Positions 3,485 through 29,634 of a stretch of DNA of 52,609 bases are shown here, piece by piece; the first letter of the stretch is position 1; each line of letters opens with the position of its first letter. A program made the translations under genes and the position numbers. The stretch comes from an uncultured Acidobacteriota bacterium (GTDB lineage Bacteria; Acidobacteriota; UBA6911; RPQK01; CBDAPI01). The stretch spans positions 1 to 52,609 of the forward strand of contig CAYXBG010000003.1 of NCBI GenBank assembly GCA_964463145.1. Reading direction: 5' to 3'. Under the pieces are notes generated by a model. That model was not told where the DNA came from, ran no database searches, and saw nothing but the letters and a program-made list of their open reading frames with translations.

Positions 3485-3563
3485 CACCACAATCCTCCTC
3501 GAACGATCAATCACTAAAGGAAGGCCCTATCTCGGTAACCTTTTTGCTTGATATGGGGTAAGT

Positions 3564-4523
3564 GTGCTTTCTCAAAGGACTAAGCCCGTGAAACGCTCAA
3601 TACACGTCTTTAGCGTGATCGTGGCCTCCTCCACGTTTATCCTGCTTATCGCGGGCGGCCTGGTCACCAGCAATGACGCTGGATTGGCCGTACCTGACTG
3701 GCCTCTCTCCTATGGTAGCTGGATGCCTCCTATGGTAGGAGGCATCTTTTATGAGCACGGCCACCGTATCATCGCAGCAAGCGTTGGGCTGATGACCCTT
3801 TTACTGTGTGTCGCCCTATTTATGACTCGCACACCTAGGTGGATGCGTGTGCTTGGTGTTACAACACCTATTACGGTAATCCTCCAAGGGATTTTAGGAG
3901 GTGTAACAGTCCGATACCAACTCCCTCTAGCGATCTCGGTTATACATGCCTGCCTGGCCCAAATCTTTTTTTGCCTCACCACCAGTCTGGCTCTATTTTC
4001 ATCGCGGCCCTGGTCTCGCGGTTGGGACATACCTGCTTCCCTAACCTATACTCTAAGCCCCAGAGCGATTCTCCTTACTTCCTCTATTCTGATTCAGCTG
4101 ATTCTGGGGGCTTTGTTAAGACATACTGGAGTTGTGGACGGATCTAAAGCGGGCCGATTAGTCTCCTGGGTTGTGATCGCCCACATTCTGGGTGCCATTA
4201 TTGTGACTGTACTGGTTCTGCGGGTAGGCGTAATGCTTTTACGCCATTTTGAGGAAGGACTACTATATCAACTAGGCGTTGCCTTGCTATCCTTACTTGT
4301 CGTACAAGTTTCTCTGGGCGTGGGCTCCTTTTGGGTCCGACTTAAAGCAATGGAATGGGTCCAACCTTTACCCTTGGATACTTGGATAACGACCTCACAT
4401 CTCGCCGTCGGAGCACTCATGTTAGTCACAAGCTTACTGGTCATATTCTGTCTCAAGAATAGGTATAATAACAGCACTCCACTATCGGTAGGTTCCACAG
4501 TCTTGACGGTAGTATTTAAATGA
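3564..4523 (+). CDS. ctaA: haem A synthase (COX15/CtaA family)
   Basis: GTG start. Polytopic membrane protein with the hallmark LVTSNDAGLAVPDWPLSYG ... YEHGHRIIA and further conserved His (IHAC, LRHTG, IAHILG, TSHLAVG). Its stop overlaps the ctaB start (ATGA). Confidence 0.9.
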   Translation: MLSQRTKPVKRSIHVFSVIVASSTFILLIAGGLVTSNDAGLAVPDWPLSYGSWMPPMVGGIFYEHGHRIIAASVGLMTLLLCVALFMTRTPRWMRVLGVTTPITVILQGILGGVTVRYQLPLAISVIHACLAQIFFCLTTSLALFSSRPWSRGWDIPASLTYTLSPRAILLTSSILIQLILGALLRHTGVVDGSKAGRLVSWVVIAHILGAIIVTVLVLRVGVMLLRHFEEGLLYQLGVALLSLLVVQVSLGVGSFWVRLKAMEWVQPLPLDTWITTSHLAVGALMLVTSLLVIFCLKNRYNNSTPLSVGSTVLTVVFK

Positions 4524-5416
4524 ATATTTCTACGCACAGCACTCCCCACGCTTCTGGCCTATTCTCACGGATTCCAGCGTATCTAGAACTTACCAAGCCA
4601 CGAGTATCCATAATGGTTGCTTTGACAGCAGGCGCGGGTGTTTTCTTAGGATCAGCTTCTTCCTCGCAGCTCCTTCTGGTGGCATGGGTTATTCTAGCTA
4701 CAGGACTTCTTGCTGGAGGGGCAGCCTGCCTCAACCAATTTCTTGAGAACCAGCCTGATTCCTTAATGGCAAGAACGGCTAGACGCCCGATCCCGAGCGG
4801 ACGCATAGGTCGAGTCCAGGCCGTGGTTTTCGGATTATCTCTTAGTATCGTTGGTGCGTTTCTTCTGATCATCTATGCCAATACTCTGGCCACATTACTC
4901 GGACTTTTGACAAGTATCATTTATCTCCTTGCCTACACTCCACTCAAACGCCATAGCACAATCTGCACCACTGTGGGAGCAGTACCCGGCGCAGTTCCCC
5001 CTCTAATTGGATGGGCTGCAGCTACAGGTAGTCTCAATAGTCAAGCTTGGGCCCTATTTCTAATTCTTTTCCTGTGGCAATATCCTCATTTTCTGGCTAT
5101 AGCTTGGCTCTATAGAGACGACTATGCTAAAGCTGGCTTCAAAATGCTCCCAATGCTTGACGTCTCTGGGAAAAAAACCTCCAAGCAGGTTGTAATATTT
5201 TCCAGCTTATTGCTCGTTGCCAGTGTCCTTCCTGTGTACCTAGACCTGGCCGGAAAAATTTATCTGATGGGTGCTCTCGGCTTGGGAGCGTTACAGGTAA
5301 TCGTTTCTCTACAACTGCACAGAGATCCATCTACCACTAAAGCGAGACACGTTCTGAGAGCCTCTCTCGTTTATCTGCCAATATTGTTGATCTTCTTGAT
5401 GATCGACAAAATCTAG
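4520..5416 (+). CDS. ctaB: protohaem IX farnesyltransferase (haem O synthase)
   Basis: UbiA-family motifs are present (NQFLENQPDSLMARTARRPIPSG, WQYPHFLAIAWLYRDDYAKAGFKMLP). Translationally coupled to ctaA. Confidence 0.92.
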   Translation: MNISTHSTPHASGLFSRIPAYLELTKPRVSIMVALTAGAGVFLGSASSSQLLLVAWVILATGLLAGGAACLNQFLENQPDSLMARTARRPIPSGRIGRVQAVVFGLSLSIVGAFLLIIYANTLATLLGLLTSIIYLLAYTPLKRHSTICTTVGAVPGAVPPLIGWAAATGSLNSQAWALFLILFLWQYPHFLAIAWLYRDDYAKAGFKMLPMLDVSGKKTSKQVVIFSSLLLVASVLPVYLDLAGKIYLMGALGLGALQVIVSLQLHRDPSTTKARHVLRASLVYLPILLIFLMIDKI

Positions 5417-17474: not shown

Positions 17475-17509
17475 AAACCAGACAAGACTCACGCTCGCCA
17501 TTACCGAGA

Positions 17510-18676
17510 CTAGCTTTGCTTGGTCATTGATATGGAGTTATTGTTACCCAACCGGAGGTTAAGACGTACGCTATCTGGATCCTGTACCTCGATCACAGCC
17601 GTCCCAAAAGTGATACCGAACTTGGGCAACGAAACCGTATATCTACCGGGAGGAACTCTCACGGAGCTAATGCCGGTACGCCCTCGGAAGTTGATCTTCG
17701 ATGTTTGGTAAGTCTTGCCGGTTTTCTGATTAGCCAGACGAAAACTCAAATTAGCTACTCTGTAAATATCAAAGGCATTATTAGCACTCTTGGAAATACG
17801 AATGGTAACCCGCCTTGGAGTCGCGGCTCGCTTTTCAGCGGCAAGACGCAGCTCCCGGCGCTTTTTGACTGCCTGCAGCCTTTCGGTAGGGAATTGCGCC
17901 TCAATCCATCCCTGAATTTTGTCTTTGGACTCATTGACAATACTGTCCACTAGAGGCAAGACCGTATCAGTGTCAGTCTTGCGGAGCGCTATCCCTACTT
18001 CGATAGTATCTATGACATCACCCACAATCTCGAGATTCCTACCACCAGCTATAGTATCGAGAACATAGGCGATCATATTGAGATCATCCACAACAGCATC
18101 AACTTCTCCAGACCTCAGCTGCAATATGGCCTCATCTAGAGTTCCGATGGGGGTAACCTCGACTCCCATACTTCTGGTCCTGACTCCCTCCTCAACCGGC
18201 GTTCCTCTCCGCACACCTATTTTTTTACCACCGTCAGAACTGGGGTTGAGATTTCCGACCCTTAACGGGGGGGTGGCCATCACTAATTCTGATGTGTAAT
18301 AAGTCTCGGAGAAGGCTAAATCTTCCACCCTCTGGGGAGTTTTCCCATAGACCGCAATGATGAAATCATACCCATTGTTTTTGAGACTCTCTGCCATACT
18401 TTCGTATTCTTTTGGTAGCCAAAAAGGAGTTATGCCTTCTTTATCAATCTCATTGCCAATACGCTTGGCGATCAGGTTGGCCAACTCTGCCTCAGGTCCA
18501 ACATATTCTGAATTCACTTGATGTAAAAGAGGCGCACCAAAGGGGACGGAGCCAATATGCAGCTCGCCGGTCCTTCTAATCTGACTGAGGGTGTCCTTCC
18601 CACCTCCATGGCCACCACACCCAATGAAAGTCAAACTTAATCCAAGTAATAAAAGGCTCACCAACTTCTTCTGCAT
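17510..18676 (-). CDS. lipoprotein: family-3 solute-binding domain fused to a CarboxypepD_reg-like C-terminal domain
   Basis: Lipobox LTFIGC-GG. SBP_bac_3-like core (LHIGSVPFGAPLL..., YDFIIAVYGKTPQR, GEVDAVVDD). C-terminal GRYTVSLPKFG beta-sandwich-like tail. Confidence 0.75.
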   Translation of the reverse strand: MQKKLVSLLLLGLSLTFIGCGGHGGGKDTLSQIRRTGELHIGSVPFGAPLLHQVNSEYVGPEAELANLIAKRIGNEIDKEGITPFWLPKEYESMAESLKNNGYDFIIAVYGKTPQRVEDLAFSETYYTSELVMATPPLRVGNLNPSSDGGKKIGVRRGTPVEEGVRTRSMGVEVTPIGTLDEAILQLRSGEVDAVVDDLNMIAYVLDTIAGGRNLEIVGDVIDTIEVGIALRKTDTDTVLPLVDSIVNESKDKIQGWIEAQFPTERLQAVKKRRELRLAAEKRAATPRRVTIRISKSANNAFDIYRVANLSFRLANQKTGKTYQTSKINFRGRTGISSVRVPPGRYTVSLPKFGITFGTAVIEVQDPDSVRLNLRLGNNNSISMTKQS

Positions 18677-18742
18677 GCTTTAGTTTTTCCTTTGAAAGCG
18701 ATTCATATTAACATAAAAGGTTAGTTATGATGGTCGGCATTC

Positions 18743-18767
18743 CCCTTAGCTGGCAAGCAGCTAAGGG
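18743..18767 (-). terminator. 10-bp stem / 5-nt loop hairpin downstream of nfuA (weak terminator candidate)
   Basis: CCCTTAGCTG-GCAAG-CAGCTAAGGG read directly, 57 nt past the nfuA stop. No clear U-tract. Confidence 0.3.
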
Positions 18768-18823
18768 AGCAGCGCAAGCTCCCCAAACCGGCGACTTAAT
18801 GCCCCCCTCTGACACATCGGGTT

Positions 18824-19426
18824 TCAGTTATAGAAAGGGTTCTCTCCTGTCGAATGATCAGTTACATCAACAACCTCTTCTATCTCAGGCACTAGTTCTT
18901 TAATTCGAGACTCAATCCCATGTTTTAGCGTGACATCTACCATGCCACAACCGTGACAACCACCCCCAAAGCTCAGGTATACTTTATTTTCTTTGACACC
19001 CACAAAAGTGACGGTCCCGCCATGGGCTGCCACAGCACTGTTAATCTCCGTATTGATAAGTCGTTCAACCTTTTCAGTGGCAGGCCCGGTCAAGTCCTCA
19101 CGTGGTCCATCACCAATCTGTGGGATCTCCGGCTGGTTGGGATTATCAAAACGAAAACCACTTTTAAGAATGCCTTCTTCGTAATCCACCGTAGCGCCTT
19201 CCAAGTGCTGGGAACTCGCCGGATCCATAAAAACTCGGATACCTTCTGTATCCAGTACGACATCGTCATTTCTCAGATCGTCATCTCCCACTACACGCAT
19301 ACCGTAGACAAACTCTGCGGTACCATTCGCGGAGGCCTCCAGCCTCAGGGCTGTTTTACCGGTGTTTTTTTGCAGAGCATCGATGATCTGCTCTTTCGCT
19401 CCATCTGTGATCGTCAGTTCAGGCAT
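18824..19426 (-). CDS. nfuA: Fe-S cluster biogenesis protein NfuA-like (IscA/HesB-like N-domain plus Nfu C-domain)
   Basis: ATG at 19426 with AGGA upstream. N-terminal ITDGAKEQI...; C-terminal GGGCHGCGMVDVTLKHGIE (CxxC Nfu motif). Confidence 0.85.
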   Translation of the reverse strand: MPELTITDGAKEQIIDALQKNTGKTALRLEASANGTAEFVYGMRVVGDDDLRNDDVVLDTEGIRVFMDPASSQHLEGATVDYEEGILKSGFRFDNPNQPEIPQIGDGPREDLTGPATEKVERLINTEINSAVAAHGGTVTFVGVKENKVYLSFGGGCHGCGMVDVTLKHGIESRIKELVPEIEEVVDVTDHSTGENPFYN

Positions 19427-19750
19427 GATTCTTTTCCTAAAATTTCTACTTAACAATTGCCAAAAATTATGGCGCTTCAGAATTCTACCAGAATTTCATC
19501 CGTAACGATTGATCCATCGCGAGGGATCAGTTCCCCGTTAAAGATCCAATTGTGCCATCTAACGCTATTGTAGACAGTTGACCTACTTCTCGACTTGGAT
19601 CATTATTGTCTACTGTCGGAGCAGACATAGCATATGCAAGCTGGGAGTTTTTATTAGAGCGTCATCTCGGGCCTGCGCACTGCGCCCCTATGGGAGGCCG
19701 CGCAACCCTACCCCAACAACAATCCCGTTGGCTGATGAAAGGATATAGAC

Positions 19751-21760
19751 ATGGCTAGAGCGAATGCAACTACATGGAAGTACCTGGATAGTGCCCTCTG
19801 CCTTACGGCGGCGACGGCTTTCAACTTCATACAATTCTTCAACAAGCGTCGCCCCAAACCTTCTTTTACTCCCAAATGGTCTGATAAACCACTTCTCAAG
19901 TCGTGGCAGAAGACTAAACCTAATCTCGGTTGGCCCAGAGAGACAGATTCCTTGTGCCCTAAATGCGTCATCGAAGCTAGGGAAAAAATTATTGCCGGGG
20001 AAGAAGATTACCAGATTCTGATTGACGAGAAGGTTGGAGAAGTCAAAGCCAAGATTGTGGAACGTGACAACCAGATCTGGATGATGAAAGACTGCCCTCA
20101 ACACGGAAAGTACGAAGACCTCATGGCAATTGATGCCAACTTTCTGCGCTGGATTGAGAGCAATTTCCCTGGCCGTGATATTCGCTCTCACAACGACACC
20201 AATCTACATAACCATGGGTCTAGCACTATTAAGCATGGCCGAGGCTCCGTCCTGACAGTAGATCTTACCAACCGCTGTAACATGATGTGTGACCCCTGCT
20301 TTATGGACGCCAATCAGGTTGGTTTCGTACACGAACTTGAATGGACCGACATCAAGGAAATCCTGGACAACGCACTTAAAATCAAGCCCCGGCGTCAGAT
20401 GTCAGTTCAATTTTCTGGTGGAGAACCGACCATCTCTCCTCACTTTTTCAGAGCCATCAAGTACTCTCGGAAAATCGGCTACAACAGTGTTCAATGTGCT
20501 ACCAACGGCATCGAATTCGCCAAAAGCAAGGAATTCAGTCAAAAGGCAGCAGAGGCTGGGTTGCGCTTCCTTTACTACCAATTCGATGGGGTAGGGAACG
20601 AAGCCAACAGCCATCGTCATATCGGGAACCTTTTCGACGTCAAGTTGAGGGGTATTGAGAATGCTCACGAAGCGGGGATCGAAATCGTTCTCGTCACTAC
20701 ACTGGTTAATGATGTAAACAACGATCAAGTCGGACCTATCATCCGTTTTGCAATGGATAATCCCAAAAAAGTTGCCTTTATCGCTTTCCAGCCCGTTTCC
20801 TTCACGGGTCGAGATGAGGAAGTTACAGACGAACGTCGCTTGAGACAGCGCTACACTCTCTCTCATCTTGCTCACGATGTGAAGAAGCAAACCGGGATGA
20901 CCGAACCGACTCGTGATTGGTTCCCACTTTCCCTTATGGGTTCCTTCGCGGATTTCGCAGATCTAGCGCATGGACCAGAGGCCGACTGGGGGCAGGTCAG
21001 CTGCGGCTGCCATCCCAATTGCGGAGTTGGTACGGCGGTAATGGTCGATAAAGAAACCAAGGACTTCGCGCCCGTACCCCAGTTTCTCAACATCCCAGGA
21101 CTGGTTAAAGACATGCAAGCAATCACAGATGCTGGGCGGGGTAAGCACTTTTCCAACGCTATGATGGGGCTAGCACTGCTCAAAAACTATAAGCCCTTCT
21201 CGGCTCCACCCAGATTAACTTTAAGTGCAGTCCTGAAAAAATTCGATAAAAGTTTTGGACTGTCTGGATACAATTATGGAGAGGGCAAAGATCGCAGAGA
21301 CGATCCTTGGAATTTCCTGTTTGTAGCTGGTATGTGGTTTCAGGATCTTTTCAATTACGATTTTCGTAGAACGGAAATGTGCATCATTCCTTACGGAACA
21401 CAAGAGGGCGAAATCTCTTTCTGCGCCTATAACACTGGGCACGGTTGGCGCAATATCATCGAGCACATGCACCAGAATGCCAGCGTAGCTAATTGGTACA
21501 AGGAACACGGAAGACACCAGATTTGGGCAGGCGGTAAAAAGGTGGATTTGAGTAGTTACGAACACTCCTTAAAACTGCAGTCGAATGACGTGGAGGCCAT
21601 ACGCGCGAAAAAGGATCTCCCTCAAACTGCAAGAGATGAGAAGCTCGCTGCCCGCGAGGCTGCAAAAGAAGCGGCTCAGGTCCGTGCCTACTATGAAGAA
21701 CAGGTGTTGGGCCAGAAGAGCAAAGAGAAGTTGGTTCAGATCACCACTCCTAACCAGTAA
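19751..21760 (+). CDS. large radical SAM enzyme of the archaeal Tes / GDGT-MAS (MJ0619-type) family
   Basis: N-terminal rubredoxin/zinc-ribbon-like CPKC...CPQHG. Radical SAM CNMMCDPC (Cx3Cx2C). VQFSGGEPT, ATNGI, LYYQFDG, IAFQPVSFTGR, DWFP, CHPNCG and a C-terminal CIIPYGTQEGEISFCAYN block. Recognised from memory of family hallmarks. Confidence 0.8.
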   Translation: MARANATTWKYLDSALCLTAATAFNFIQFFNKRRPKPSFTPKWSDKPLLKSWQKTKPNLGWPRETDSLCPKCVIEAREKIIAGEEDYQILIDEKVGEVKAKIVERDNQIWMMKDCPQHGKYEDLMAIDANFLRWIESNFPGRDIRSHNDTNLHNHGSSTIKHGRGSVLTVDLTNRCNMMCDPCFMDANQVGFVHELEWTDIKEILDNALKIKPRRQMSVQFSGGEPTISPHFFRAIKYSRKIGYNSVQCATNGIEFAKSKEFSQKAAEAGLRFLYYQFDGVGNEANSHRHIGNLFDVKLRGIENAHEAGIEIVLVTTLVNDVNNDQVGPIIRFAMDNPKKVAFIAFQPVSFTGRDEEVTDERRLRQRYTLSHLAHDVKKQTGMTEPTRDWFPLSLMGSFADFADLAHGPEADWGQVSCGCHPNCGVGTAVMVDKETKDFAPVPQFLNIPGLVKDMQAITDAGRGKHFSNAMMGLALLKNYKPFSAPPRLTLSAVLKKFDKSFGLSGYNYGEGKDRRDDPWNFLFVAGMWFQDLFNYDFRRTEMCIIPYGTQEGEISFCAYNTGHGWRNIIEHMHQNASVANWYKEHGRHQIWAGGKKVDLSSYEHSLKLQSNDVEAIRAKKDLPQTARDEKLAAREAAKEAAQVRAYYEEQVLGQKSKEKLVQITTPNQ

Positions 21761-21984
21761 ATCCAAGCCTTCATCACTTTGCTTCCTATCGGTTAAAGGG
21801 GGCGTGGGGACTTGCCGCTTCGAGACGAAGACAGTTTCGGTGACACGTTTCCGGCCTCGTGCTACCGTTGTGTAAAGGCTAGTACACGTTTATTACCTAA
21901 TGGCTCCAGAAAGACGTGATTTGTTCGATTGCCACAAGAATTTTGGAGGCATTCAGGTTACCATAATTATTGAGAGGTACACTA

Positions 21985-22308
21985 ATGAGTGATCTGGCTA
22001 GTAAAGAATGTGTCCCCTGTCGGGGAGGAGTCCCTGCACTTACAAGCGAGGGGATAGAGCCTTTATTGCAACATATTCAGGGTTGGCAAGTAATCAAAGA
22101 TCATCATCTCCATGGAGACTTCGGATTTCCTGATTTCCAGACAGCCCTGGATTTCGTGAATCAGGTAGGCCACTTGGCCGAGGAACAGGGGCATCATCCA
22201 GATATCTATCTGAGCTGGGGCAAGGTAGTAATCACGATCTGGACTCACAAAATCGACGGTCTTACCGAAAGCGATTTCATACTGGCTGCTAAGATTAACC
22301 GACTTTAA
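21985..22308 (+). CDS. pterin-4a-carbinolamine dehydratase (PCD/DCoH)
   Basis: ATG at 21985 with GAGAGG upstream. Motif GHHPDIYLSWGKVVITIWTHKIDGLTESDF is diagnostic of PCD. Confidence 0.9.
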   Translation: MSDLASKECVPCRGGVPALTSEGIEPLLQHIQGWQVIKDHHLHGDFGFPDFQTALDFVNQVGHLAEEQGHHPDIYLSWGKVVITIWTHKIDGLTESDFILAAKINRL

Positions 22309-22443
22309 TGTGCCCCCATCTGAGACAGGAATTCCCAGCTCTGGCCCTGGCATTTCAGCTCACCTCAATACCTCTCCGACACCTCCGGGCAGGCTTTGCA
22401 TACACATATATCTTGCCATGTTGTAGCATTGAGTGCGTTTCTC

Positions 22444-25104
22444 ATGACGCCAGATTTTTTTGACCAACTCAAACGCAATGCAGAGCTGACACCAAATCGA
22501 ATTGCTCTCCAGCTCCTCGAAGGCAAGGATCAAGCATCTTTCACATTTCATCGCCTGTACCATGAGGTTTCTAAGCTCAGCCAGTTTTTTTCTCGTCACA
22601 TAAACCCTGGTGAGACGCTCGGAATTCTCATGCAAAACCACCCTCGCTGGGGCATCGCCTTTCTCGCCGCCGAAAGTGCCGGCGCAAGAATCCTCCCTCT
22701 CGACGTCCTACACACACCCCAAACTATTGCAGAGCTGATTCGGCATTCCGACTGCTCATTTATAGTCTCGTCTCATCAGCTTTTTGGAAAGTTGGAAGAA
22801 ATCCAGACTCAACTCCAGAGCCCTATCCCTACGCTTGTGATGGATTCACAGAAACCTGACTGCTATGACTGGAAATCCGTACTGGAAAAAGAAACCTACG
22901 CCCCTAAGCTACCACTTTTCCGAAGAGATCCAGAAGAAACCTTGCTCCTTGTCTATACAAGTGGAACTACCGGTAACCCCAAAGGCGTTATGCTCTCTCA
23001 TAACGCCATCTATCTGACCGTAAAGGCAGTTCTGGAAACCGTTCAATTAGACAACGAGGATCACATCCTGTCGGTGTTGCCTCTGTACCATATGCTTGCT
23101 CTGATGGCTAATTTCTTGATGCCTCTTTACGCGGCCACTACTGTCACATATCTAAACACTGTCGAACCCAAAAAAATCTTGGAATCTTTTCGCAATCAGG
23201 AGGTTACAGTTTTCGTTTGTGTACCTCAATTTTACTATCTTCTACACCGTAAAATTTTCCAAAAGGCCAAGCAACGAGGACTACTAAGCTATGTTACTTT
23301 CCAAGTATTCCTCCAGATATCTCGCCTAAGTAACGATTGGCTTGGCTTTAATCCTGGCCGCTTGCTATTCCGGTCTGTTCACCAAAACTTCAACAACTTG
23401 CGCTTGTTCGCAGTGGGAGGGGCTCGCTTTGACAAGAAAGTATTGAAGTCCTTTCGGGATCTGGGCTTTCAGTTTGCGCAGGCATTCGGGATGACGGAAA
23501 CCTCTGCGGTCTCAACTATCTCCGTCTCCAATGGTCTGGGATCGGTAGGGAAACCTATGCCTCATGTAGATCTCAAAATTGATCAACCTGGGATGGACGG
23601 AGTCGGAGAAATTCTCATCTCCGGGCCACACATCATGCAGGCCTACTGGAAAAATAAGGTCGCCACAAGAGATGTTCTAAAAAAAGGCTGGTTACACAGT
23701 GGTGACCTAGGGTACCTGGACCCGGACGGGTACCTTCACATCACTGGTCGTAAGAAAGATGTGATCGTATTAAGTTCAGGTAAAAATATTTCCCCAGAAG
23801 AAATCGAGCAAGCTTACGAAAGCAAGTGTTCATATATACGAGAGATGTGTGTGATCGGAGTCGAAGATGGGAGTCAAGAAAAACTCCACGCAATGATTGT
23901 ACCCGACTTTGAGTATCTAAAAAGCCAACAAGTGATCAACATTTCCGACATGTTACGCTACCAGATCGAGAACCTCTCCGTAGAATTTCCAGGGTACAAA
24001 CGAATCAGAACCTTCGATGTCCTCAGTGAGCCTCTACCCCGAACCCCTACTCGAAAGATTAAACGCTTCGAGGTCACTAGCCTGTTCGAAGATCAAAACA
24101 ACTCTAGAGTCGAGCCCATCTCTCCCAGCTCCAATCCTCGCGACGATCTAGAACGGACAGTCTTCGAGCTCCTGAAAGAAACTGGCAAAGTTACAAGTAT
24201 TCGACACGAGATGAGTCTAGAGCTCGATTGCGGATTTGACTCCCTGGAACGAGTGGAATTCCTTTCCAACATACAAGACACCTTTGGATTAAATATCAAG
24301 AGGGAGGATGCGACCACTATCTTCACCGTCCAGGATCTGATAGACGTTTTGAGGACAACTCTGGGCGGCAGAGCAAGAATAAGTACACGGAACAAAGCAA
24401 CCACCTGGAATGACATTCTGAGTCAGCCCTTGACCGACGAAGAGAAAAACGCAATACGCCTAACCTTAAGGCGCCGCCCTATAGTCGAGATCGTGTACTT
24501 TGGCATGAGTCGGCTTCTTCTTTTCCTAGCCAAAGCCCTTCTCAAGTTAAGATTGGATGGGCAGGACAAACTTCCAACAGATGGTCCTTTCCTGATCTGC
24601 CCCAACCATTTGAGTTACCTAGATGGATTTCTCTTAAGTGCCGGAGTCACTTTTACTCACCTAAAACGCATGGGTTACTTGGGTTACAGTGATTACTTCC
24701 GTACCGGGACTCTTGGTGGATACCTCGGGAGCCTTCTCAAGATTGTACCCGTGGATCCAGACAAACACCTACGCCAAGCACTACGGATCGGAGCTTACGG
24801 GTTGTCAGAAGGTTACATCCTGAGCATATTCCCAGAAGGGGAAAGATCTATAGATGGAGAGATCAAATCCTTCAGAAAGGGACCGGCAATTTTATCCAAA
24901 GAACTCAATGTAGCGGTCATTCCTACTGCTATAATAGGAACCTACGAAGTCTGGCCACGCGGTTCTTCTAAAATAAAGGCTTCCCCCGTGACGATACGTT
25001 TTGGAGATCCTTTAATGCCTCTTGAGCATGAAAGCCACGCCCAGTTTACTCAGCGCATACAAAATTCTGTGCGAGAGTTGCTAGAGGAGGGTGGCGGTTC
25101 ATGA
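22444..25104 (+). CDS. tri-domain fusion: acyl-AMP/CoA ligase, acyl carrier domain, and PlsC-type (AGPAT) acyltransferase
   Basis: ATG at 22444. AMP-binding core YTSGTTGNPKGVMLSH plus GWLHSGDLGY and PRTPTRKIKR. Carrier-domain Ser motif LDCGFDSLERVEF. Acyltransferase motifs CPNHLSYLDG (HX4D) and FPEGERS. Confidence 0.85.
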   Translation: MTPDFFDQLKRNAELTPNRIALQLLEGKDQASFTFHRLYHEVSKLSQFFSRHINPGETLGILMQNHPRWGIAFLAAESAGARILPLDVLHTPQTIAELIRHSDCSFIVSSHQLFGKLEEIQTQLQSPIPTLVMDSQKPDCYDWKSVLEKETYAPKLPLFRRDPEETLLLVYTSGTTGNPKGVMLSHNAIYLTVKAVLETVQLDNEDHILSVLPLYHMLALMANFLMPLYAATTVTYLNTVEPKKILESFRNQEVTVFVCVPQFYYLLHRKIFQKAKQRGLLSYVTFQVFLQISRLSNDWLGFNPGRLLFRSVHQNFNNLRLFAVGGARFDKKVLKSFRDLGFQFAQAFGMTETSAVSTISVSNGLGSVGKPMPHVDLKIDQPGMDGVGEILISGPHIMQAYWKNKVATRDVLKKGWLHSGDLGYLDPDGYLHITGRKKDVIVLSSGKNISPEEIEQAYESKCSYIREMCVIGVEDGSQEKLHAMIVPDFEYLKSQQVINISDMLRYQIENLSVEFPGYKRIRTFDVLSEPLPRTPTRKIKRFEVTSLFEDQNNSRVEPISPSSNPRDDLERTVFELLKETGKVTSIRHEMSLELDCGFDSLERVEFLSNIQDTFGLNIKREDATTIFTVQDLIDVLRTTLGGRARISTRNKATTWNDILSQPLTDEEKNAIRLTLRRRPIVEIVYFGMSRLLLFLAKALLKLRLDGQDKLPTDGPFLICPNHLSYLDGFLLSAGVTFTHLKRMGYLGYSDYFRTGTLGGYLGSLLKIVPVDPDKHLRQALRIGAYGLSEGYILSIFPEGERSIDGEIKSFRKGPAILSKELNVAVIPTAIIGTYEVWPRGSSKIKASPVTIRFGDPLMPLEHESHAQFTQRIQNSVRELLEEGGGS

Positions 25105-25979
25105 TGTCTGCTCGAGAAATCCCAAAAGCAGATTTCCAAGATCTGGAAACCCTTTGGATACAGATTTCTGGCACTCTGTGCAATTTAAGTTGCACCCACT
25201 GTTTCATCAGTTGCGCACCAGATAATCACGCACTGCCTATGATGCAAACCGAGAAGGTTCTAGGATATTTAAGGGAGGCCGAAGAATTGGGGGTGAAGGA
25301 AATCTACTTCACTGGCGGGGAGCCCTTCCTTCATAAAAATTTCCTGGAAATCTTAAAAGTGACATTACAAAAATTCCCTACATCCATATTAACCAACGGC
25401 CTTCTCATCAATGAGGACCGAGCCGACAAGCTAACTCACATCGCACAGAATTCACACTACTCTCTTGAGATCAGGGTCAGCCTAGATGACTATGAGGAGA
25501 CTCGCAATGACAGCGTTCGTGGACTGGGTACATACCGAAAAGTCCTTGCTGCCTACAAGAGATTGTGGGAAAGGGGCCTTCTTCCGATTCTCGCAGTTAC
25601 AGAAATCAGAGAATACTACTCTCCTGATGACTCGCCCTTCGACGCTTTTGAAAAGTATGTCGAATTGCTCGGATCCCTTGGAGTCCTTCGCCCTCGGATC
25701 AAGATTATCCCGGTCTTCGAGATGGGCATGCTCCCAACCCCTGACAGCCCTACATATATCACTCCTCAAATGATGACGGGCTTCGATCATAGCCTGCTAC
25801 AATGCTCGACATCACGTATTGTAGCCGAAGATGGCATCTACTCCTGTCCTATTCTGGTAAACGAGGAACGGGCACTGATCGGAGACTCCACACTCTCGGG
25901 GTCTCTAGTGTCTTGCGACCTTTACCACACAGCATGTACCACCTGCTATGCCACCGGAATGACCTGTAAGAACTACTAG
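25101..25979 (+). CDS. radical SAM enzyme with a Cys-rich C-terminus (ArsS / TIGR04167-like)
   Basis: Start overlaps the upstream stop (ATGA). Radical SAM CNLSCTHC followed by FISCAPDN, FTGGEPFL, C-terminal LQCSTSRIVAEDGIYSCP and HTACTTCYATGMTC. Architecture recalled from the ArsS-type family. Confidence 0.75.
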   Translation: MMSAREIPKADFQDLETLWIQISGTLCNLSCTHCFISCAPDNHALPMMQTEKVLGYLREAEELGVKEIYFTGGEPFLHKNFLEILKVTLQKFPTSILTNGLLINEDRADKLTHIAQNSHYSLEIRVSLDDYEETRNDSVRGLGTYRKVLAAYKRLWERGLLPILAVTEIREYYSPDDSPFDAFEKYVELLGSLGVLRPRIKIIPVFEMGMLPTPDSPTYITPQMMTGFDHSLLQCSTSRIVAEDGIYSCPILVNEERALIGDSTLSGSLVSCDLYHTACTTCYATGMTCKNY

Positions 25980-26000
25980 CCACAGAAGAGGCCATAGAAT

Positions 26001-26846
26001 TTGGTGGAACATTTACAATCAAACCGAACGCGTGGTCAGAAAAAATGGGAAGATGTTCCGGTATACAATCGTGTTCTCCTTTTTGGAGGTGTCTACAGCA
26101 ACTACATTGCCCTGGCGCATCTATTGAAGAACTGCTCAAAGATGAACGCAGAGGCAATCTTCTGCCTTGGAGATATAGGAGGATTCGGACCGCATCCCAA
26201 CAAATCCTATGAATATCTTCGAAATACCAGAGTAACTACTCTGGCGGGCAACTACGATCTCTCTCTCTCTCAGGGTCTCGATGATTGTGGCTGTGGTTAC
26301 ACGGATCCCCGCGATAATCATTTTGCCCAGATCAGTTATGATTACACCTTTCAAAACACATCCCGGTCCAACAAGGACTGGCTGATTACGCTGCCAAGTT
26401 TAATCCGTTTCAGATTGGCTGATTTAAAAGTGCTACTCTGTCATGGTTCTCCACGTAGAACCAATGAGTTCCTCTGGGACAGTTCCTCACCTGACCATCT
26501 ACTGCATCGATTTCTGGAAGATTCGGGGGCGGATGTCTTGTGCTTCACCCACACGGGACTCAAGTGGTACAGGCAGTTGGAAGGGAATCGTCACGCTGTA
26601 AACGTTGGAGTCATAGGCCGCCCTGAAAATGACGGGACATCTAATGTTTGGTTCACGCTTCTAGAGGCAACAGGGCAAGACCTGCAATGCTTCTTCCTCC
26701 CTCTCAATTACGATCACTCTAGACTGATCAATGAGATGAAACAGGAGGACCTGCCCCCAGAATTTATCGAGACGATTCAAACAGGTTGGTGGACAACGTG
26801 TCTGGAAATAATGCCCTTCAAAGAAAGACTCCGGGGGCGTTTTTAA
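26001..26846 (+). CDS. calcineurin-like metallophosphoesterase (YfcE/MJ0936-like) with a non-canonical motif I
   Basis: TTG or GTG start 22 nt after the radical SAM gene. Motifs GDIGGFGP, GNYD, CHGSP and THTG are present. The usual DxH motif position reads GGVYSN. Confidence 0.75.
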   Translation: MVEHLQSNRTRGQKKWEDVPVYNRVLLFGGVYSNYIALAHLLKNCSKMNAEAIFCLGDIGGFGPHPNKSYEYLRNTRVTTLAGNYDLSLSQGLDDCGCGYTDPRDNHFAQISYDYTFQNTSRSNKDWLITLPSLIRFRLADLKVLLCHGSPRRTNEFLWDSSSPDHLLHRFLEDSGADVLCFTHTGLKWYRQLEGNRHAVNVGVIGRPENDGTSNVWFTLLEATGQDLQCFFLPLNYDHSRLINEMKQEDLPPEFIETIQTGWWTTCLEIMPFKERLRGRF

Positions 26847-26903: not shown

Positions 26904-27503
26904 CTAATGAATGGTGCTCTCGCCTGGGGCAGGCATGTCATCCGGAATCACGTTTCGATTGACGTAGTTGTCGAGATTGATCACATAGGTATCCTTTGAG
27001 TCCACAAACGTCTGTGAGTGGGTCGACGCTATAATTCGAAACTGTTTTTCGTCGACTAATTCCATCAACATCTTGAGGACACGGCGCTGATTGGAAATCG
27101 AAAGTGCCATCTCAGGTTCGTCCAGTAGCAATACTGTCCCATTTGGCAAACTCGGGAACGACTGCTGGAACAAGCTCAACATGATCTGACCATGACTTGC
27201 CATCTCCAGGAATTCACGCGTCTCGGCATTATCCTCAAAGAAATCTAGTTGCTTGCGAGGATTGTGTTGCTCGGCATCAAAAAGGAACACACCGCCCAGA
27301 TCGTCAGGTTTATTACTTAATTTATAGGTAAAGTTAGCAACTTCTTCACCGGTTAACGAGTAATAAAGAGAATGGAGCAAAGTCGATTTTCCCGAACCAT
27401 TTTCGCCAGTTAACATGATCAATGGATGTGATAGATCAAGAACCATCGGCATGTGAAAATTCAAGTTAATAAAAACAGGATGTGTGATTATTTTCAGAAA
27501 CAC
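26904..27503 (-). CDS. stand-alone compact ABC/SMC-type ATPase (about 199 aa)
   Basis: GTG start with GAGGAAGG 8 nt upstream. Walker A GENGSGKST, signature-like ASHGQ, Walker B LLLDEPEMAL, H-loop STHS. No fused or adjacent partner domain. Confidence 0.7.
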   Translation of the reverse strand: MFLKIITHPVFINLNFHMPMVLDLSHPLIMLTGENGSGKSTLLHSLYYSLTGEEVANFTYKLSNKPDDLGGVFLFDAEQHNPRKQLDFFEDNAETREFLEMASHGQIMLSLFQQSFPSLPNGTVLLLDEPEMALSISNQRRVLKMLMELVDEKQFRIIASTHSQTFVDSKDTYVINLDNYVNRNVIPDDMPAPGESTIH

Positions 27504-27669: not shown

Positions 27670-29634
27670 CTATGGTTTGAGTTTGAATCGTTCCAGGAGA
27701 CTGAGCAGGATGTCGATGGGAACATCCGTGCTTCTATTCTTACCCTCTCCGAGGCTAGCAAGATGAACAACCGCTCCGTCGGCACCAACATGTTGAGCTG
27801 CATTAACCAGAGGCGGGATGCGATTGTGATGGGAAATACATTGTGTTGGATCTATAAAAACTGGGAAAGGAGTCTCCTCCTTGAGAGCTAGCACCGCCCC
27901 CAGATCTATAGTAGATCTCGAACCACTTTCCGATGTCCTTATTCCTCCTTCACATAGAATGACCTGCTGGTTCCCTAACTCCAATATAGTGTTGGCAGAT
28001 GAGAGCAATTCCTGGACTGTAGAACTTATATTCCTTTCAAGGACAATCGGAACGGATGTCCGGCCGGCTGCTTCGAGGAGAGACATGTTCTGCATTTGTC
28101 TTGAGGAAAGAAACAGTACATCCGCGTGACTGTCATAAAGAGGTATTTGGCCAGGAGCCTGCACCTCACACCCCAACGGGACCCCATGTTGATTGGCCAA
28201 TTGCTGGATCCGTTTAAAATTCCCATCAATTTCTTTCTCCGAGGATCCAAGCCTTGTAATCCGCAGGAGACCTTGGCCTAATCTCCTCAAGCACTTCAGG
28301 GTCTTTTCAACAATTTCCGATCCGGTATCGGGCGGACAAGAAACCACTGTCGTAAAGCTACTATCGCCGACCAGTATTGAGTCAATGAGAATCTGTCTGG
28401 AAGTCAGCGTCTTCTCAGGTAGAGATCTTACTTCACTATCAAAACCCTTGGATTTAAGAGAGCGCAACTCAATCTCTCCAGGCTCTAACTGGGCCCGAGA
28501 TGTAGTGCCCACCATTGCACTGGGAAAACATCCAAGAACACGAAGGAACCTAGCCCTCGAGCGAACCTGGTCTAGGGCTTCAAAGATCCTTGCTTCGTCG
28601 ATATTTCCCTCCATCTCTATATGGAATTGATACTGCCAAGGAGTACCCTTCCGAGGACGAGATTCGAGCTTGGTGAGGTTAATCCCCTCTGACGATAAAG
28701 CTGATAGTGCGGCTACTAGAGCACCTTCAGAATGATCCGTCACTAGCAGAAATGATGTTTTCGCGGGAATTCTGGTATCCACAGATGCTGAATCCCGAGA
28801 AATGATCCAAAAACGAGTGTAGTTTTCAGGGTGGTCGGCTATACCTCGCCTCAAAACTGTCAGCCCATATAGTTCGGCCGCCTCTGCACTCGCAATGGCA
28901 GCTTGAGTTGAGTCGTCCTCATCTTTAACTTTCCGCACAGCTTCGGCTGAGTCAATATAACTCTGATAAGACGCATTAGGGAGGCTTTTTATGAAAGCTG
29001 TACACTGTTGTAACGCGACCGGGTGAGAAAGAACCGTACAGATGTGATCCAGAGGCGTGCCTTCTAACCCGATCAGGCAATGCTCTATTTTGAGATATTC
29101 TTCTCCGACTACATGGAGCTTACTCTCTGCCAACAGGTCATATACTTCGTACACAGTGCCCGCCAGAACATTTTCTATCGGCAGAAAAGCCAAGTCGACA
29201 TTACCAGATTCCACTGCGTCAACAACTTCAACGAAACTGGTATATCCAATCGGTTCGATGTCATCGCCAAAATATTTACGACACGCCATCCAAGAGTAAG
29301 CTCCATTTGCACCTTGATATGCTATCTTGTGGGCCCTTTTCAGAGAAGGATTCCTGGCGTGGTGGACACGCCGGCTCTGGACCTCCCGGGAGTGATTGAT
29401 AACCTCTCTTAGTACACGCTCCGCAAGATTAGGATCGAGATCTTTCTCCATAGCGAGACTTGCCACTTTTGTAAGTAGTCTTGTTTCCCGTTCAGCATCA
29501 AATAGAGGAAGACCTTGCACTTCCTTGCGCTGCAAAATCTCCTCGACCACTTCCATTCGGCGTGCCAAAGCCTCAAGTAACTCTTGGTCAGCCCCGTCAA
29601 TACGGTCTCTAAGTGAATCCAGTTCGCTTGCCAT
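27670..29634 (-). CDS. pheA: P-protein (chorismate mutase, prephenate dehydratase, ACT) fused to a C-terminal DAHP-synthase-like (type I-beta) domain
   Basis: CM helix region (LRDRIDGADQELLEALARRMEV). PDT (KIAYQGANGAYS..., ENVLAGTV). ACT (KTSFLLVT...ESRP). C-terminal ~250 aa align by eye to I-beta DAHPS (QVILCEGGIRT, VFIDPTQ, AAQHVGADGAVV). Confidence 0.85.
   Translation of the reverse strand: MASELDSLRDRIDGADQELLEALARRMEVVEEILQRKEVQGLPLFDAERETRLLTKVASLAMEKDLDPNLAERVLREVINHSREVQSRRVHHARNPSLKRAHKIAYQGANGAYSWMACRKYFGDDIEPIGYTSFVEVVDAVESGNVDLAFLPIENVLAGTVYEVYDLLAESKLHVVGEEYLKIEHCLIGLEGTPLDHICTVLSHPVALQQCTAFIKSLPNASYQSYIDSAEAVRKVKDEDDSTQAAIASAEAAELYGLTVLRRGIADHPENYTRFWIISRDSASVDTRIPAKTSFLLVTDHSEGALVAALSALSSEGINLTKLESRPRKGTPWQYQFHIEMEGNIDEARIFEALDQVRSRARFLRVLGCFPSAMVGTTSRAQLEPGEIELRSLKSKGFDSEVRSLPEKTLTSRQILIDSILVGDSSFTTVVSCPPDTGSEIVEKTLKCLRRLGQGLLRITRLGSSEKEIDGNFKRIQQLANQHGVPLGCEVQAPGQIPLYDSHADVLFLSSRQMQNMSLLEAAGRTSVPIVLERNISSTVQELLSSANTILELGNQQVILCEGGIRTSESGSRSTIDLGAVLALKEETPFPVFIDPTQCISHHNRIPPLVNAAQHVGADGAVVHLASLGEGKNRSTDVPIDILLSLLERFKLKP

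What the first reader, a model, noticed from the sequence alone, without database searches (positions are those of the whole stretch)
19751..26846. Headline candidate: two radical SAM enzymes, an acyl-activating/ACP/acyltransferase fusion and an atypical phosphoesterase form a putative locus for an undescribed modified or membrane-spanning lipid
Five co-directional genes stand out from the surrounding housekeeping content.
- A 669-aa radical SAM protein of the family whose archaeal members join lipid tails (tetraether / macrocyclic archaeol synthase).
- A PCD.
- A single polypeptide that should activate a fatty acid (AMP-ligase), hold it on its own carrier domain and transfer it to a lysolipid (PlsC motifs).
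- A translationally coupled Cys-rich radical SAM enzyme.
- A metallophosphoesterase starting 22 nt further on.

Together these supply acyl loading, radical C-H/C-C chemistry and phosphoester processing. That is the toolkit expected for an unusual bacterial membrane lipid, for example tail-to-tail coupled, branched or head-group-modified. No characterised bacterial pathway that I know of has this gene set.
Basis: partly seen in the sequence, partly recalled or inferred. Interest (0 to 1): 0.75.

Follow-up and report, generated by a model that had tools for sequence, protein, structure and literature searches.

The report
Two adjacent units, not one lipid locus
The five genes are real, but they are two unrelated units: a very conserved bacterial relative of the archaeal tetraether-lipid synthase (already a published candidate for bacterial membrane-spanning lipids), and a conserved acidobacterial three-gene operon joining a fatty-acid-loading acyltransferase to an uncharacterised radical-SAM/odd-phosphoesterase pair of unknown chemistry.

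Summary
All five genes are present as described, with the stated domains. The five-gene locus does not hold up.

**Tes-like gene and PCD.** These lie in a syntenic block (SMC…NifU-like | Tes-like | PCD). That block recurs in relatives without the other three genes. On one 4.04-Mb contig the Tes-like gene and the triad are about 680 kb apart. Bacterial Tes homologues are already published, unproven candidates for brGDGT synthesis.

**The triad.** The fusion (AMP-ligase/ACP/PlsC), the rSAM and the MPE form a real operon. It has an ATGA stop/start overlap and is conserved in at least five acidobacterial lineages with unrelated flanks.

**The rSAM + MPE-like pair.**
- It is a widespread obligate module: 60 of 67 loci with room downstream carry both genes, and natural fusions exist.
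- The MPE-like protein has lost one of its two metal sites and gained invariant cysteines.
- In other lineages the pair sits with flavin disulfide reductases, DedA/VTT, DUF547 and "arsenosugar-type" glycosyltransferases. It also sits inside hopanoid clusters, or is fused to ArsM-type methyltransferases.

**Most likely function.** The operon tailors or remodels an acylated membrane lipid; the chemistry of the pair is unknown. This is a useful lead, not the headline claimed.

The parts
18824..19456 (-). NifU-like Fe-S assembly protein (Fe-S_biosyn + NifU). It is the conserved neighbour of the Tes-like gene and is context, not part of the triad.
   Evidence: Pfam result. It is adjacent to the Tes-like gene in L084, L168, L170 and L171, and in the Gemmatimonadota locus L169.
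19751..21760 (+). Unit A: bacterial Tes/GDGT-MAS-family radical SAM protein (669 aa). It has an N-terminal Zn ribbon, a CxxxCxxC motif and the C-terminal cluster motifs.
   Evidence: Family and structure matches. It is 74-86% identical across Acidobacteriota and Gemmatimonadota.
21970..22308 (+). Unit A: pterin-4a-carbinolamine dehydratase (PCD/DCoH). The probable start is ATG 21986.
   Evidence: Family matches. It follows the Tes-like gene in L084, L168, L170 and L171, but not in L169 or L172.
22444..25104 (+). Unit B, gene 1: acyl-AMP ligase, in-cis ACP and PlsC-type acyltransferase fusion (886 aa). The ORF is open from TTG 22396.
   Evidence: Domains, homologues, and invariant catalytic motifs in alignment A1.
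25101..25979 (+). Unit B, gene 2: twitch/SPASM-like radical SAM protein ('rSAM2', 292 aa). Its start overlaps the fusion's stop as ATGA at 25101-25104.
26001..26846 (+). Unit B, gene 3: degenerate metallophosphoesterase-fold protein (281 aa). The metal-A ligands are lost, the metal-B ligands are kept, and there are extra invariant Cys residues.

Best explanation
The interval holds two independent units that lie side by side only in this lineage.

**Unit A (19751-22308).** This is a stand-alone, strongly conserved bacterial member of the Tes/GDGT-MAS radical-SAM family, followed by a PCD gene. By homology it is a lipid tail C-C coupling enzyme. That role is an inference, and for Acidobacteria it is already a published hypothesis.

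**Unit B (22444-26846).** This is a three-gene operon.
1. The fusion protein adenylates a free fatty acid.
2. It parks the acyl group on its own phosphopantetheinyl carrier domain.
3. Its PlsC domain transfers the acyl group to a hydroxyl acceptor, most simply a lyso-lipid. This is an Aas-like reaction done in cis.

The next two genes encode an obligate partnership: a twitch-type radical SAM enzyme and an MPE-fold protein. The MPE-fold protein keeps only one of the two canonical metal sites and has gained a conserved Cys set.

I propose that the pair makes or tailors the lipid or head-group partner that the fusion then acylates or re-acylates. That would make Unit B a membrane-lipid tailoring or remodelling operon.

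**Shown:** gene content, catalytic motifs, operon conservation, the obligate pairing, the gene fusions and the loss of synteny with Unit A.
**Inferred:** the acyl transfer and the lipid target.
**Unknown:** the reaction catalysed by the pair.
For: **Decomposition into two units**
- Tes-like and PCD lie in a conserved block without the triad in L168, L170 and L171.
- On one contig the Tes-like gene and the triad are about 680 kb apart.
- The Tes-like protein is 86% identical to its counterpart on a contig where the fusion is only 60% identical.

**The triad is an operon**
- Fusion, rSAM2 and MPE are adjacent in L081, L084/85, L086, L087, L088 and L089, with unrelated flanks.
- The ATGA overlap between fusion and rSAM2 occurs in four lineages.
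- Thirteen further fusion/rSAM2 cluster pairs list identical longest-contig lengths. Six of those contigs are 34 kb or shorter.
- The fusion-linked rSAM2 sequences form one clade.

**The pair is obligate**
- In 60 of 67 loci with room downstream, the MPE directly follows rSAM2. The median gap between aligned regions is 27 nt, with many overlaps.
- P0368 is a natural MPE+rSAM2 fusion.

**Lipid or membrane theme in the half of the tree that contains the window**
- A patatin gene follows the MPE in L081.
- The pair is embedded in hopanoid clusters in L175, L158 and L092, and independently sits next to hpnH/hpnA in L134.
- VTT/DedA neighbours occur in 7 loci.

**Fusion chemistry**
- The AMP-binding, ACP-Ser and PlsC motifs are invariant.
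Against: - No experiment or characterised homologue defines the pair's reaction.
- rSAM2 is below the cut-off of every NCBIfam model; its best is the Rv1681 family at 90 bits against 380. Its fold neighbours are generic twitch/SPASM enzymes with TM about 0.6.
- Most loci carrying the pair have no lipid gene nearby.
- In the other half of the family tree the pair is linked or fused to ArsM-type methyltransferases. That points to metalloid chemistry and not to lipids.
- One acidobacterial genome (L083) and the distant homologues L001-L004 carry the fusion without the pair. The fusion can therefore work alone.
- Tes-like and the triad co-occur on at least three chromosomes. They may also share one 41-kb contig, inferred from matching contig lengths. 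A functional link in trans is therefore not excluded.
Confidence: 0.5

Rival explanations
1. All five genes form one pathway for a new tail-coupled or membrane-spanning lipid: Tes-like couples the tails, the fusion loads and transfers acyl chains, and rSAM2 and the MPE tailor the product.
For: The genes are co-directional and adjacent in the window and in its 85%-identity relative. Both units co-occur on several acidobacterial chromosomes. Tes homologues are published brGDGT candidates (PMC8941075).
Against: Synteny is lost outside the close clade, with a separation of about 680 kb on one contig. The conservation levels differ sharply, 86% against 60%. The pair occurs widely without either lipid gene. 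There are intergenic gaps of 209 nt and 135 nt around PCD, in contrast to the tight coupling inside the triad.
Confidence: 0.07
2. rSAM2 plus the MPE-like protein is an organo-metalloid (arsenic) module. The MPE-fold protein binds or reduces arsenate at its retained phosphate-type metal site and Cys set. rSAM2 forms a C-As bond from SAM, as ArsS and ArsL do. In Acidobacteria the fusion would then build the product into an acylated arsenolipid.
For: **Natural fusions**
- rSAM2+ArsM-like in L137.
- MPE+ArsM-like in P0441 and P0467.

**Neighbourhood**
- ArsM-like genes lie within the scanned flanks of the pair in 7 further loci, 8 ArsM-linked loci in all counting L137.
- Neighbours include PHO4, Porin_O_P, TIGR04282/04283 'arsenosugar biosynthesis' glycosyltransferases and flavin disulfide reductases.

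**Precedent**
- ArsL and ArsS are rSAM enzymes that work with ArsM (10.1101/2024.02.01.577332).
- From general knowledge, phosphatase folds have repeatedly become arsenate reductases (ArsC, Acr2).
Against: - All ArsM-linked loci fall in the half of the rSAM2 tree that does not contain the window clade.
- No ArsM, ars or glycosyltransferase gene lies in the 52-kb window or near the acidobacterial loci.
- rSAM2 fails the ArsS model, 64 bits against 300, and lacks the ArsL RCCLKC tail.
- Its C-terminal Cys pattern fits an ordinary twitch auxiliary cluster.
Confidence: 0.12
3. rSAM2 is a maturase. It installs a post-translational modification or protein-derived cofactor, for example a Cys/Tyr/Trp cross-link, in the adjacent MPE-fold protein. 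The matured protein is then the only catalyst of the pair. This is compatible with the best explanation.
For: - The two genes show strict 1:1 adjacency and occur as a natural fusion.
- The nearest sequence and fold relatives of rSAM2 are mostly protein- or peptide-modifying SPASM/twitch enzymes: SkfB, anSME, ChlB, EpeE/YydG, PqqE, MftC and WgkB.
- The MPE-like protein has invariant Y32, Y85, Y100, C96, C98, C267 and WW263-264 in place of lost catalytic residues.
Against: - rSAM2 has no RRE or other recognisable substrate-recognition domain.
- Small-molecule twitch enzymes (BlsE, MoaA, BtrN) score equally well.
- MPE+ArsM fusions exist without an rSAM domain.
Confidence: 0.2
4. The fusion is a housekeeping Aas-type lysophospholipid re-acylation enzyme, and the pair downstream is functionally unrelated. 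The operon would reflect co-regulation only, for example under phosphate limitation or envelope stress.
For: - The fusion occurs alone in L083 and in other phyla (L001-L004), in housekeeping contexts.
- An MFS gene lies near the fusion in L002, which recalls lplT-aas.
- The pair is a mobile, self-contained module found in many contexts.
Against: - The ATGA translational coupling and the gene order are conserved across lineages that share only 48-60% identity and have unrelated flanks.
- The fusion-linked rSAM2 sequences form one clade, which suggests long co-inheritance.
Confidence: 0.15

Closest known systems
Archaeal tetraether synthase Tes / GDGT-MAS (MJ0619, PDB 7TOL; NCBIfam NF045702)
   Same: The window's 669-aa protein shares the Zn-ribbon_HMPTM domain, the radical-SAM CxxxCxxC motif and the C-terminal cluster motifs. 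It aligns with 7TOL over about 470 residues at E 2e-64.
   Different: It scores 322 bits, below the Tes equivalog cut-off of 450. It has extra N- and C-terminal extensions. It belongs to a very conserved bacterial clade, 74-86% identical across phyla. Its substrate would be bacterial, not isoprenoid. No activity has been shown, and only 3 of 14 iso-diabolic-acid-producing acidobacteria carry a Tes homologue (PMC13159169).
E. coli Aas (2-acyl-GPE acyltransferase / acyl-ACP synthetase; NF006386, NF005291)
   Same: Both combine an AMP-forming acyl-activating domain with a PlsC-type acyltransferase in one polypeptide, and the acyl group passes through ACP.
   Different: The domain order is reversed here: ligase, then ACP, then PlsC. 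The carrier domain is built in, whereas Aas uses free ACP. Scores are far below the cut-offs, 228 against 1221.
Myxobacterial ElbD (ligase-ACP-reductase-AGPAT, ether-lipid synthesis)
   Same: The order ligase, ACP, acyltransferase is the same. This comparison draws on my own knowledge and on a mention in PMC10087280.
   Different: No reductase or NAD-binding domain was detected in the window protein, so it cannot make the fatty aldehyde or alcohol needed for ether lipids.
ArsS (arsenosugar) and ArsL (arsinothricin): radical SAM enzymes paired with ArsM
   Same: All are Cys-rich radical SAM enzymes. Members of the rSAM2 family are adjacent to, or fused with, ArsM-type methyltransferases.
   Different: rSAM2 scores 64 against the ArsS cut-off of 300. 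No DUF3641 domain and no RCCLKC tail is present. The window's clade is not ArsM-linked. Neither known system includes an MPE partner.
Calcineurin-like metallophosphoesterases of the ApaH/PrpE/YfcE type (PDB 3rqz, 2gju, 3qfm, 2qjc)
   Same: The fold-level Pfam match passes the gathering scores. The GD, GN, H and H motifs are retained.
   Different: Three motifs are changed and invariant across the family: motif I DxH becomes GG[VI]Y[SN]N, motif III GNH[DE] becomes GNY[DE], and motif V GHxH becomes THTG. Extra invariant features are DCxCGY and C267. The protein matches no NCBIfam model.

Membership tests
Tes / GDGT-MAS (NF045702) | Radical SAM CxxxCxxC motif plus the N-terminal Zn ribbon (PF23545) | tested here: met
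   PF23545 scores 49.5 bits and PF04055 scores 65.4 bits. CNMMCDPC aligns with CNLNCPIC of 7TOL.
Tes / GDGT-MAS (NF045702) | Whole-protein score at or above the curated equivalog cut-off (450 bits) | tested here: not met
   322.1 bits. It is a family homologue, not an equivalog.
Tes / GDGT-MAS (NF045702) | Catalyses tail-to-tail C-C coupling of lipid chains, and the host makes membrane-spanning lipids | not testable with these tools
   This needs lipidomics or an enzyme assay. The literature gives only a hypothesis for bacterial homologues (PMC8941075, PMC10087280, PMC13159169).
Aas (acyl-ACP synthetase / lysophospholipid acyltransferase) | AMP-binding domain and PlsC HX4D/FPEGxR motifs in one protein | tested here: met
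   Domains. Alignment A1 has invariant YTSGTTGxPKG, N721-H722…D727 and F796-PEGE-R801.
Aas (acyl-ACP synthetase / lysophospholipid acyltransferase) | Domain order PlsC then ligase, use of free ACP, and the NCBIfam cut-off | tested here: not met
   The order here is ligase, ACP, PlsC. PP-binding is present in cis with an invariant Ser. Scores are 227.6 against 1221 and 160 against 1349.
ElbD-type ether-lipid enzyme | Reductase (NAD-binding) domain between the ACP and the acyltransferase | tested here: not met
   The only Pfam hits are AMP-binding, AMP-binding_C_3, PP-binding and Acyltransferase.
ArsS (TIGR04167) | Score at or above 300 bits, with the C-terminal Cys-rich DUF3641 region | tested here: not met
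   64.5 bits, covering only the rSAM core (residues 13-159). No DUF3641 hit.
ArsL (RCCLKC-tail rSAM, NF040542) | C-terminal RCCLKC arsenite-binding tail | tested here: not met
   The protein ends …CTTCYATGMTCKNY. The motif is defined in 10.1101/2024.02.01.577332.
Twitch/SPASM radical SAM enzymes | Auxiliary-cluster Cys set after the rSAM core, on a beta-hairpin-plus-helix topology | tested here: inconclusive
   C235, C249, C279, C282 and C289 are invariant; C272 is at least 90% conserved. In the AF2 model the hairpin is at 238-247 and the helix at 277-285. Foldseek top hits are BlsE, SkfB, anSME, MoaA and BtrN at TM about 0.6. Cluster binding was not shown.
Calcineurin-like metallophosphoesterase | Pfam gathering score | tested here: met
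   PF12850 scores 32.5 against 27, and PF00149 scores 27.5 against 21.5.
Calcineurin-like metallophosphoesterase | Full set of dinuclear-metal ligands: DxH, GD, GNH[DE], H, GHxH | tested here: not met
   The motif I Asp and His, the motif III His and the second His of motif V are replaced, invariantly, in 16 diverse family members. D58, N84, H148 and H184 are kept.
Pterin-4a-carbinolamine dehydratase | PF01329 and an NCBIfam equivalog cut-off | tested here: met
   PF01329 scores 105.8 bits. NF002017 scores 84.7 against 80.
Bacterial membrane-spanning lipid synthase Mss (Thermotoga/Clostridia) | Homology to the confirmed Mss proteins | not tested
PMC13159169 reports no mss homologues in the Acidobacteria it examined.

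The most novel reading that the evidence does not exclude
The rSAM2/MPE-like pair may be a third, undescribed kind of organo-metalloid (C-As bond-forming) module, alongside ArsS and ArsL. The degenerate phosphoesterase fold would serve as the arsenate-handling partner. In Acidobacteria, translational coupling to a ligase-ACP-PlsC enzyme would then give the first genetically defined bacterial route to an acylated arsenolipid.

A second reading is less likely but not excluded. The acidobacterial clade of the pair may have been recruited as the missing non-Mss, non-Tes route to iso-diabolic-acid-type membrane-spanning lipids.
Probability: 0.1. Interest if true: 0.85.

Novelty: new variant of a known kind. 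Interest (0 to 1): 0.55.

Why it matters
- **It removes a false lead.** The striking five-gene "lipid toolkit" is an accident of gene order in one lineage. The Tes-like gene adds nothing beyond the published brGDGT hypothesis. Its unusually high conservation and its NifU-like neighbour are worth noting.
- **It defines a real, untested target.** This is a three-gene operon widespread in Acidobacteriota. The enzymes that make the signature lipids of this phylum (iso-diabolic acid, brGDGTs) are still unknown.
- **It identifies a broadly distributed pair with no assigned function.** The pair is a radical SAM enzyme plus a one-metal, Cys-bearing MPE-fold protein. Rosetta-stone fusions tie the pair to ArsM-type methyltransferases, and gene neighbourhood ties it to hopanoid clusters and to "arsenosugar-type" cassettes. 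Either outcome, new lipid chemistry or new metalloid chemistry, would be a new enzyme function that is cheap to test.

Tried and rejected
- **Genome-contig scan.** The scan with the fusion alignment was seeded on the generic AMP-binding motif. It returned mostly ordinary acyl-CoA ligases, and only L001-L004 were useful. The planned genome-wide synteny test therefore had to be rebuilt from the look-up of encoding contigs and the metagenome scan.
- **MPE-like structure.** The single-sequence model was unusable (pLDDT 33). No fold search was run, and no test of whether the four Cys residues cluster in space.
- **Negative searches.**
  - Anti-phage defence: no meaningful PADLOC hit for the triad.
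  - Rfam and tRNA: nothing in the window.
  - Literature on MPE + ArsM + rSAM, TIGR04167/04282/04283 and ligase-ACP-PlsC fusions: nothing relevant.
- **Memberships rejected.** ArsS, ArsL, ElbD, Aas and canonical MPE (see the membership table).
- **PCD plus the old 'hydroxymethylpterin dimethyltransferase' annotation as a pterin pathway.** The adjacency holds only within one syntenic lineage. It is absent in L169 and L172, so it is weak evidence.
- **Pho-regulon reading of the pair.** PHO4 and Porin_O_P occur in 3 loci each. The ABC transporter in L166 has an SBP_bac_6 binding protein and is not a clear Pst system. No conclusion can be drawn.

Full report
**1. Observation**

The five co-directional ORFs are present at the stated coordinates.

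| Coordinates | Product | Key evidence |
|---|---|---|
| 19751-21760 | 669-aa radical SAM protein | Zn_ribbon_HMPTM + Radical_SAM; best NCBIfam model is Tes (322 bits, cut-off 450); PDB 7TOL (GDGT-MAS) at E 2e-64, with the CxxxCxxC and C-terminal Cys motifs aligned |
| 21970-22308 | PCD | Passes an NCBIfam equivalog cut-off |
| 22396/22444-25104 | Ligase-ACP-PlsC fusion | AMP-binding, AMP-binding_C_3, PP-binding, PlsC acyltransferase |
| 25101-25979 | Cys-rich radical SAM ('rSAM2') | ATG overlaps the fusion's TGA as ATGA, with GGAGG upstream |
| 26001-26846 | Weak Metallophos match | Starts 21 nt after the rSAM2 stop |

In 15 homologues of the fusion, at 44-85% identity, four motifs are invariant: the adenylation motif, the ACP serine, HX4D and FPEGER.

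The rest of the window is housekeeping. By best matches the organism is an Acidobacteriota lineage with about 47% GC.

**2. The five genes are not one locus**

The Tes-like gene belongs to a conserved block: SMC(-) | Peptidase_S55 | Reg_prop | SBP_bac_3(-) | NifU-like(-) | Tes-like(+) | PCD(+).

- The block recurs in three further acidobacterial contigs, L168, L170 and L171. What follows PCD there is unrelated to the triad.
- On ENA contig ctg246021_12x_l (4.04 Mb) the Tes-like gene lies at 177-195 kb and the triad at 862-884 kb.
- The five-gene arrangement appears only in the window's close relatives, L084 and L085. There the identities are Tes-like 95%, PCD 68%, fusion 85%, rSAM2 88% and MPE 86%.
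- The Tes-like protein is unusually conserved: 86% identity in the genome where the fusion is 60%, and 74% even in Gemmatimonadota.
- A NifU-like neighbour is present in the Gemmatimonadota locus L169 as well. PCD is absent in L169 and L172.

One caveat applies. A fusion cluster member (P0525) and a Tes-like cluster (P0267) both list a 41,126-bp longest contig. In that lineage the two genes may lie within 41 kb. Judging from L086 they are still more than 10 kb apart.

**3. What is known about Unit A**

- Bacterial Tes homologues, including acidobacterial ones, were proposed as brGDGT or membrane-spanning-lipid enzymes when Tes was discovered. They were invoked again for *Solibacter usitatus* (PMC8941075, PMC10087280).
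- A later survey found Tes homologues in only 3 of 14 iso-diabolic-acid-producing acidobacteria. It suggested another pathway exists (PMC13159169).
- I found no functional test.

Unit A is therefore a new member of a known, hypothesised kind.

**4. Unit B is a genuine operon**

- Fusion, rSAM2 and MPE are adjacent in L081, L086, L087, L088 and L089, with unrelated flanks. Identities to the window are fusion 48-60%, rSAM2 60-66% and MPE 61-64%.
- The ATGA overlap recurs in L081, L084/85 and L087.
- Thirteen further fusion/rSAM2 cluster pairs share identical longest-contig lengths. Six of those contigs are 34 kb or shorter.
- One acidobacterial genome (L083) has the fusion alone.
- Full-length but distant fusions occur in Nitrospirota, Bacteroidota, Verrucomicrobiota and Nitrosomonas, in housekeeping contexts without the pair.

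**5. The conserved core is the rSAM2 + MPE-like pair**

A metagenome scan seeded with family-specific rSAM2 motifs returned 80 loci at 41-66% identity.

- In 60 of the 67 loci with at least 400 nt downstream, an MPE homologue follows directly. The median gap between aligned regions is 27 nt, with many overlaps of 18 or 3 nt.
- P0368 is a natural MPE+rSAM2 fusion.

The MPE-like family departs from the canonical motifs in the same way in all 16 diverse members aligned:

| Feature | Canonical | This family |
|---|---|---|
| Motif I | DxH | GG[VI]Y[SN]N |
| Motif III | GNH[DE] | GNY[DE] |
| Motif V | GHxH | THTG |
| Retained ligands | | D58, N84, H148, H184 |
| Added invariant residues | | DC96xC98GY and C267 invariant; C55 at least 90% conserved |

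Read against the canonical scheme, which I take from general knowledge of the family, the metal-A site is gone and the metal-B site is intact. The protein matches no NCBIfam model. Its PDB matches are weak and of the ApaH/YfcE type.

rSAM2 has the features of a twitch/SPASM enzyme.

- It carries an N-terminal CxxxCxxC motif and five invariant C-terminal Cys residues, plus a sixth (C272) at 90% or more.
- The AF2 model has mean pLDDT 82.6.
- Its structural neighbours are generic: BlsE, SkfB, anSME and MoaA, at TM about 0.6.
- It falls below every curated NCBIfam cut-off. The best match is the Rv1681 family at 90 against 380, and ArsS scores 64 against 300.

**6. Partners of the pair elsewhere**

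I scanned 132 co-directional neighbours within about 3.3 kb of the pair. The recurrent families were:

| Neighbour family | Loci |
|---|---|
| FmdA_AmdA | 10 |
| Pyr_redox_2 (includes MerA-like NF004991 above its cut-off) | 10 |
| VTT/DedA | 7 |
| ArsM-like methyltransferase | 6 |
| DUF547 | 5 |
| DUF2064/TIGR04282 | 5 |
| Ferrochelatase | 4 |
| PHO4 | 3 |
| GT2/TIGR04283 | 3 |
| Porin_O_P | 3 |

- **A large cluster.** L127 reads DUF2652 | Pyr_redox_3-Fer4 | GT2-DUF2064 | DUF547 | DUF2064 | porin | SSS | rSAM2 | MPE | GT2.
- **Gene fusions.** L137 encodes rSAM2+ArsM-like in one ORF. P0441 and P0467 are MPE+ArsM-like fusions.
- **Hopanoid clusters, lineage 1.** In L175, from a 9.09-Mb genome, and in its relatives L158 and L092, the pair is embedded in a hopanoid cluster. 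The cluster reads SQS, MlaC/HpnM-like, HpnH, HpnA, HpnG, Shc | pair | … LPG_synthase_TM.
- **Hopanoid clusters, lineage 2.** Independently, in L134 the pair is followed by a sulfatase-family gene, a B12-rSAM, a GT2, hpnH and hpnA.
- **A marine lineage.** One abundant marine lineage has Lactamase_B | pair | TrxB-like.

None of these accessory genes occurs in the window or near the acidobacterial loci.

An NJ tree of rSAM2 gives structure to these associations.

- The fusion-linked sequences form one clade.
- The same half of the tree holds the hopanoid-, MerA-like-, VTT-, DUF547- and FmdA-linked loci.
- All eight ArsM-linked loci lie in the other half.

**7. Mechanism**

*Shown.* The fusion has everything needed to adenylate a fatty acid, thioesterify it to its own carrier domain and transfer it through a PlsC active site. 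The pair is an obligate two-protein unit. The operon is conserved.

*Inferred.* The fusion acts like Aas, working in cis on a lyso-lipid or other hydroxyl acceptor. In this clade the pair works on the same lipid or head group. The support for this is the translational coupling, the patatin gene next to the MPE in L081, and the hopanoid and DedA contexts in related clades.

*Unknown.* The reaction catalysed by the pair. Three options remain open:

| Option | Probability |
|---|---|
| (a) Small-molecule or lipid radical chemistry plus hydrolysis | not assigned |
| (b) rSAM2 as maturase of the MPE-fold protein | about 0.2 |
| (c) Metalloid (As) chemistry, as the ArsM fusions suggest; about 0.1 of this is the acylated-arsenolipid version given as the novel reading | about 0.12 |

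My confidence is about 0.85 that the interval decomposes into two units. It is about 0.5 for Unit B as a lipid tailoring or remodelling operon.

**8. Verdict**

The headline claim, one locus for a new membrane-spanning lipid, is not supported. What remains is a conserved acidobacterial operon and a widespread, uncharacterised rSAM/MPE-fold pair. I classify it as a new variant of a known kind, of moderate interest (0.55). The most novel reading not excluded is an arsenolipid, or the missing iso-diabolic-acid route, at about 0.1 probability.

Noticed in passing
window 19751-21760; P0242-P0360: The bacterial Tes-like protein is 74-86% identical across Acidobacteriota, 'Aminicenantes' and Gemmatimonadota. 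That is far more conserved than neighbouring genes and suggests a strongly constrained core function.
   Followed up: partly
window 18824-19456 (-) and 19751-21760 (+); L168, L170, L171, L169: A NifU-like Fe-S assembly gene neighbours the Tes-like gene in Acidobacteriota and also in a Gemmatimonadota contig (L169). In L169 a second radical SAM gene (389 aa) precedes the Tes-like gene.
   Followed up: partly
L137:368-2566: One 732-aa ORF fuses an rSAM2-family radical SAM domain (aa 35-322) to an ArsM-type methyltransferase (aa 352-732).
   Followed up: yes
P0368, P0441, P0467 (representative proteins): These are natural fusions of the degenerate MPE-fold domain. P0368 joins it to an rSAM2-like domain. 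P0441 and P0467 join it to ArsM-type methyltransferases.
   Followed up: yes
L175:1-15000; L158; L092; L134:10000-19200: The rSAM2+MPE pair sits inside or beside hopanoid biosynthesis clusters (shc, hpnG, hpnA, hpnH, MlaC-like, LPG_synthase_TM) in at least two independent lineages.
   Followed up: partly
L081:14449-15270 and 17390-18862: In the 60%-identity relative, a patatin-like phospholipase directly follows the MPE. A B12-binding radical SAM gene with DUF4070 lies about 3 kb further on, on the opposite strand.
   Followed up: no
window 26904-27503 (-): A small 199-aa AAA/ABC-type ATPase lies convergent to the triad. It resembles the ATPase parts of defence proteins (AriA, PtuA, mad3) but is much shorter. 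It is conserved at the same position in L084/L085.
   Followed up: no
window 27670-29634 (-): One ORF fuses chorismate mutase, prephenate dehydratase, ACT and a DAHP-synthase domain (654 aa).
   Followed up: no
window 62-5416; L086 and L087 1-9500: A large multihaem cytochrome c and CtaA/CtaB lie at the window start. In L086 and L087 the triad directly abuts a cytochrome oxidase/Rieske-cyt b/multihaem cytochrome cluster. This may be a remnant of regional synteny.
   Followed up: no
L098, L101, L114, L129, L135 and related high-GC loci: A 352-aa FmdA/AmdA-family amidase sits directly upstream of rSAM2 in one large high-GC clade. It is often accompanied by MerA-like reductase, VTT/DedA and GT2-DUF2064 genes.
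   Followed up: partly
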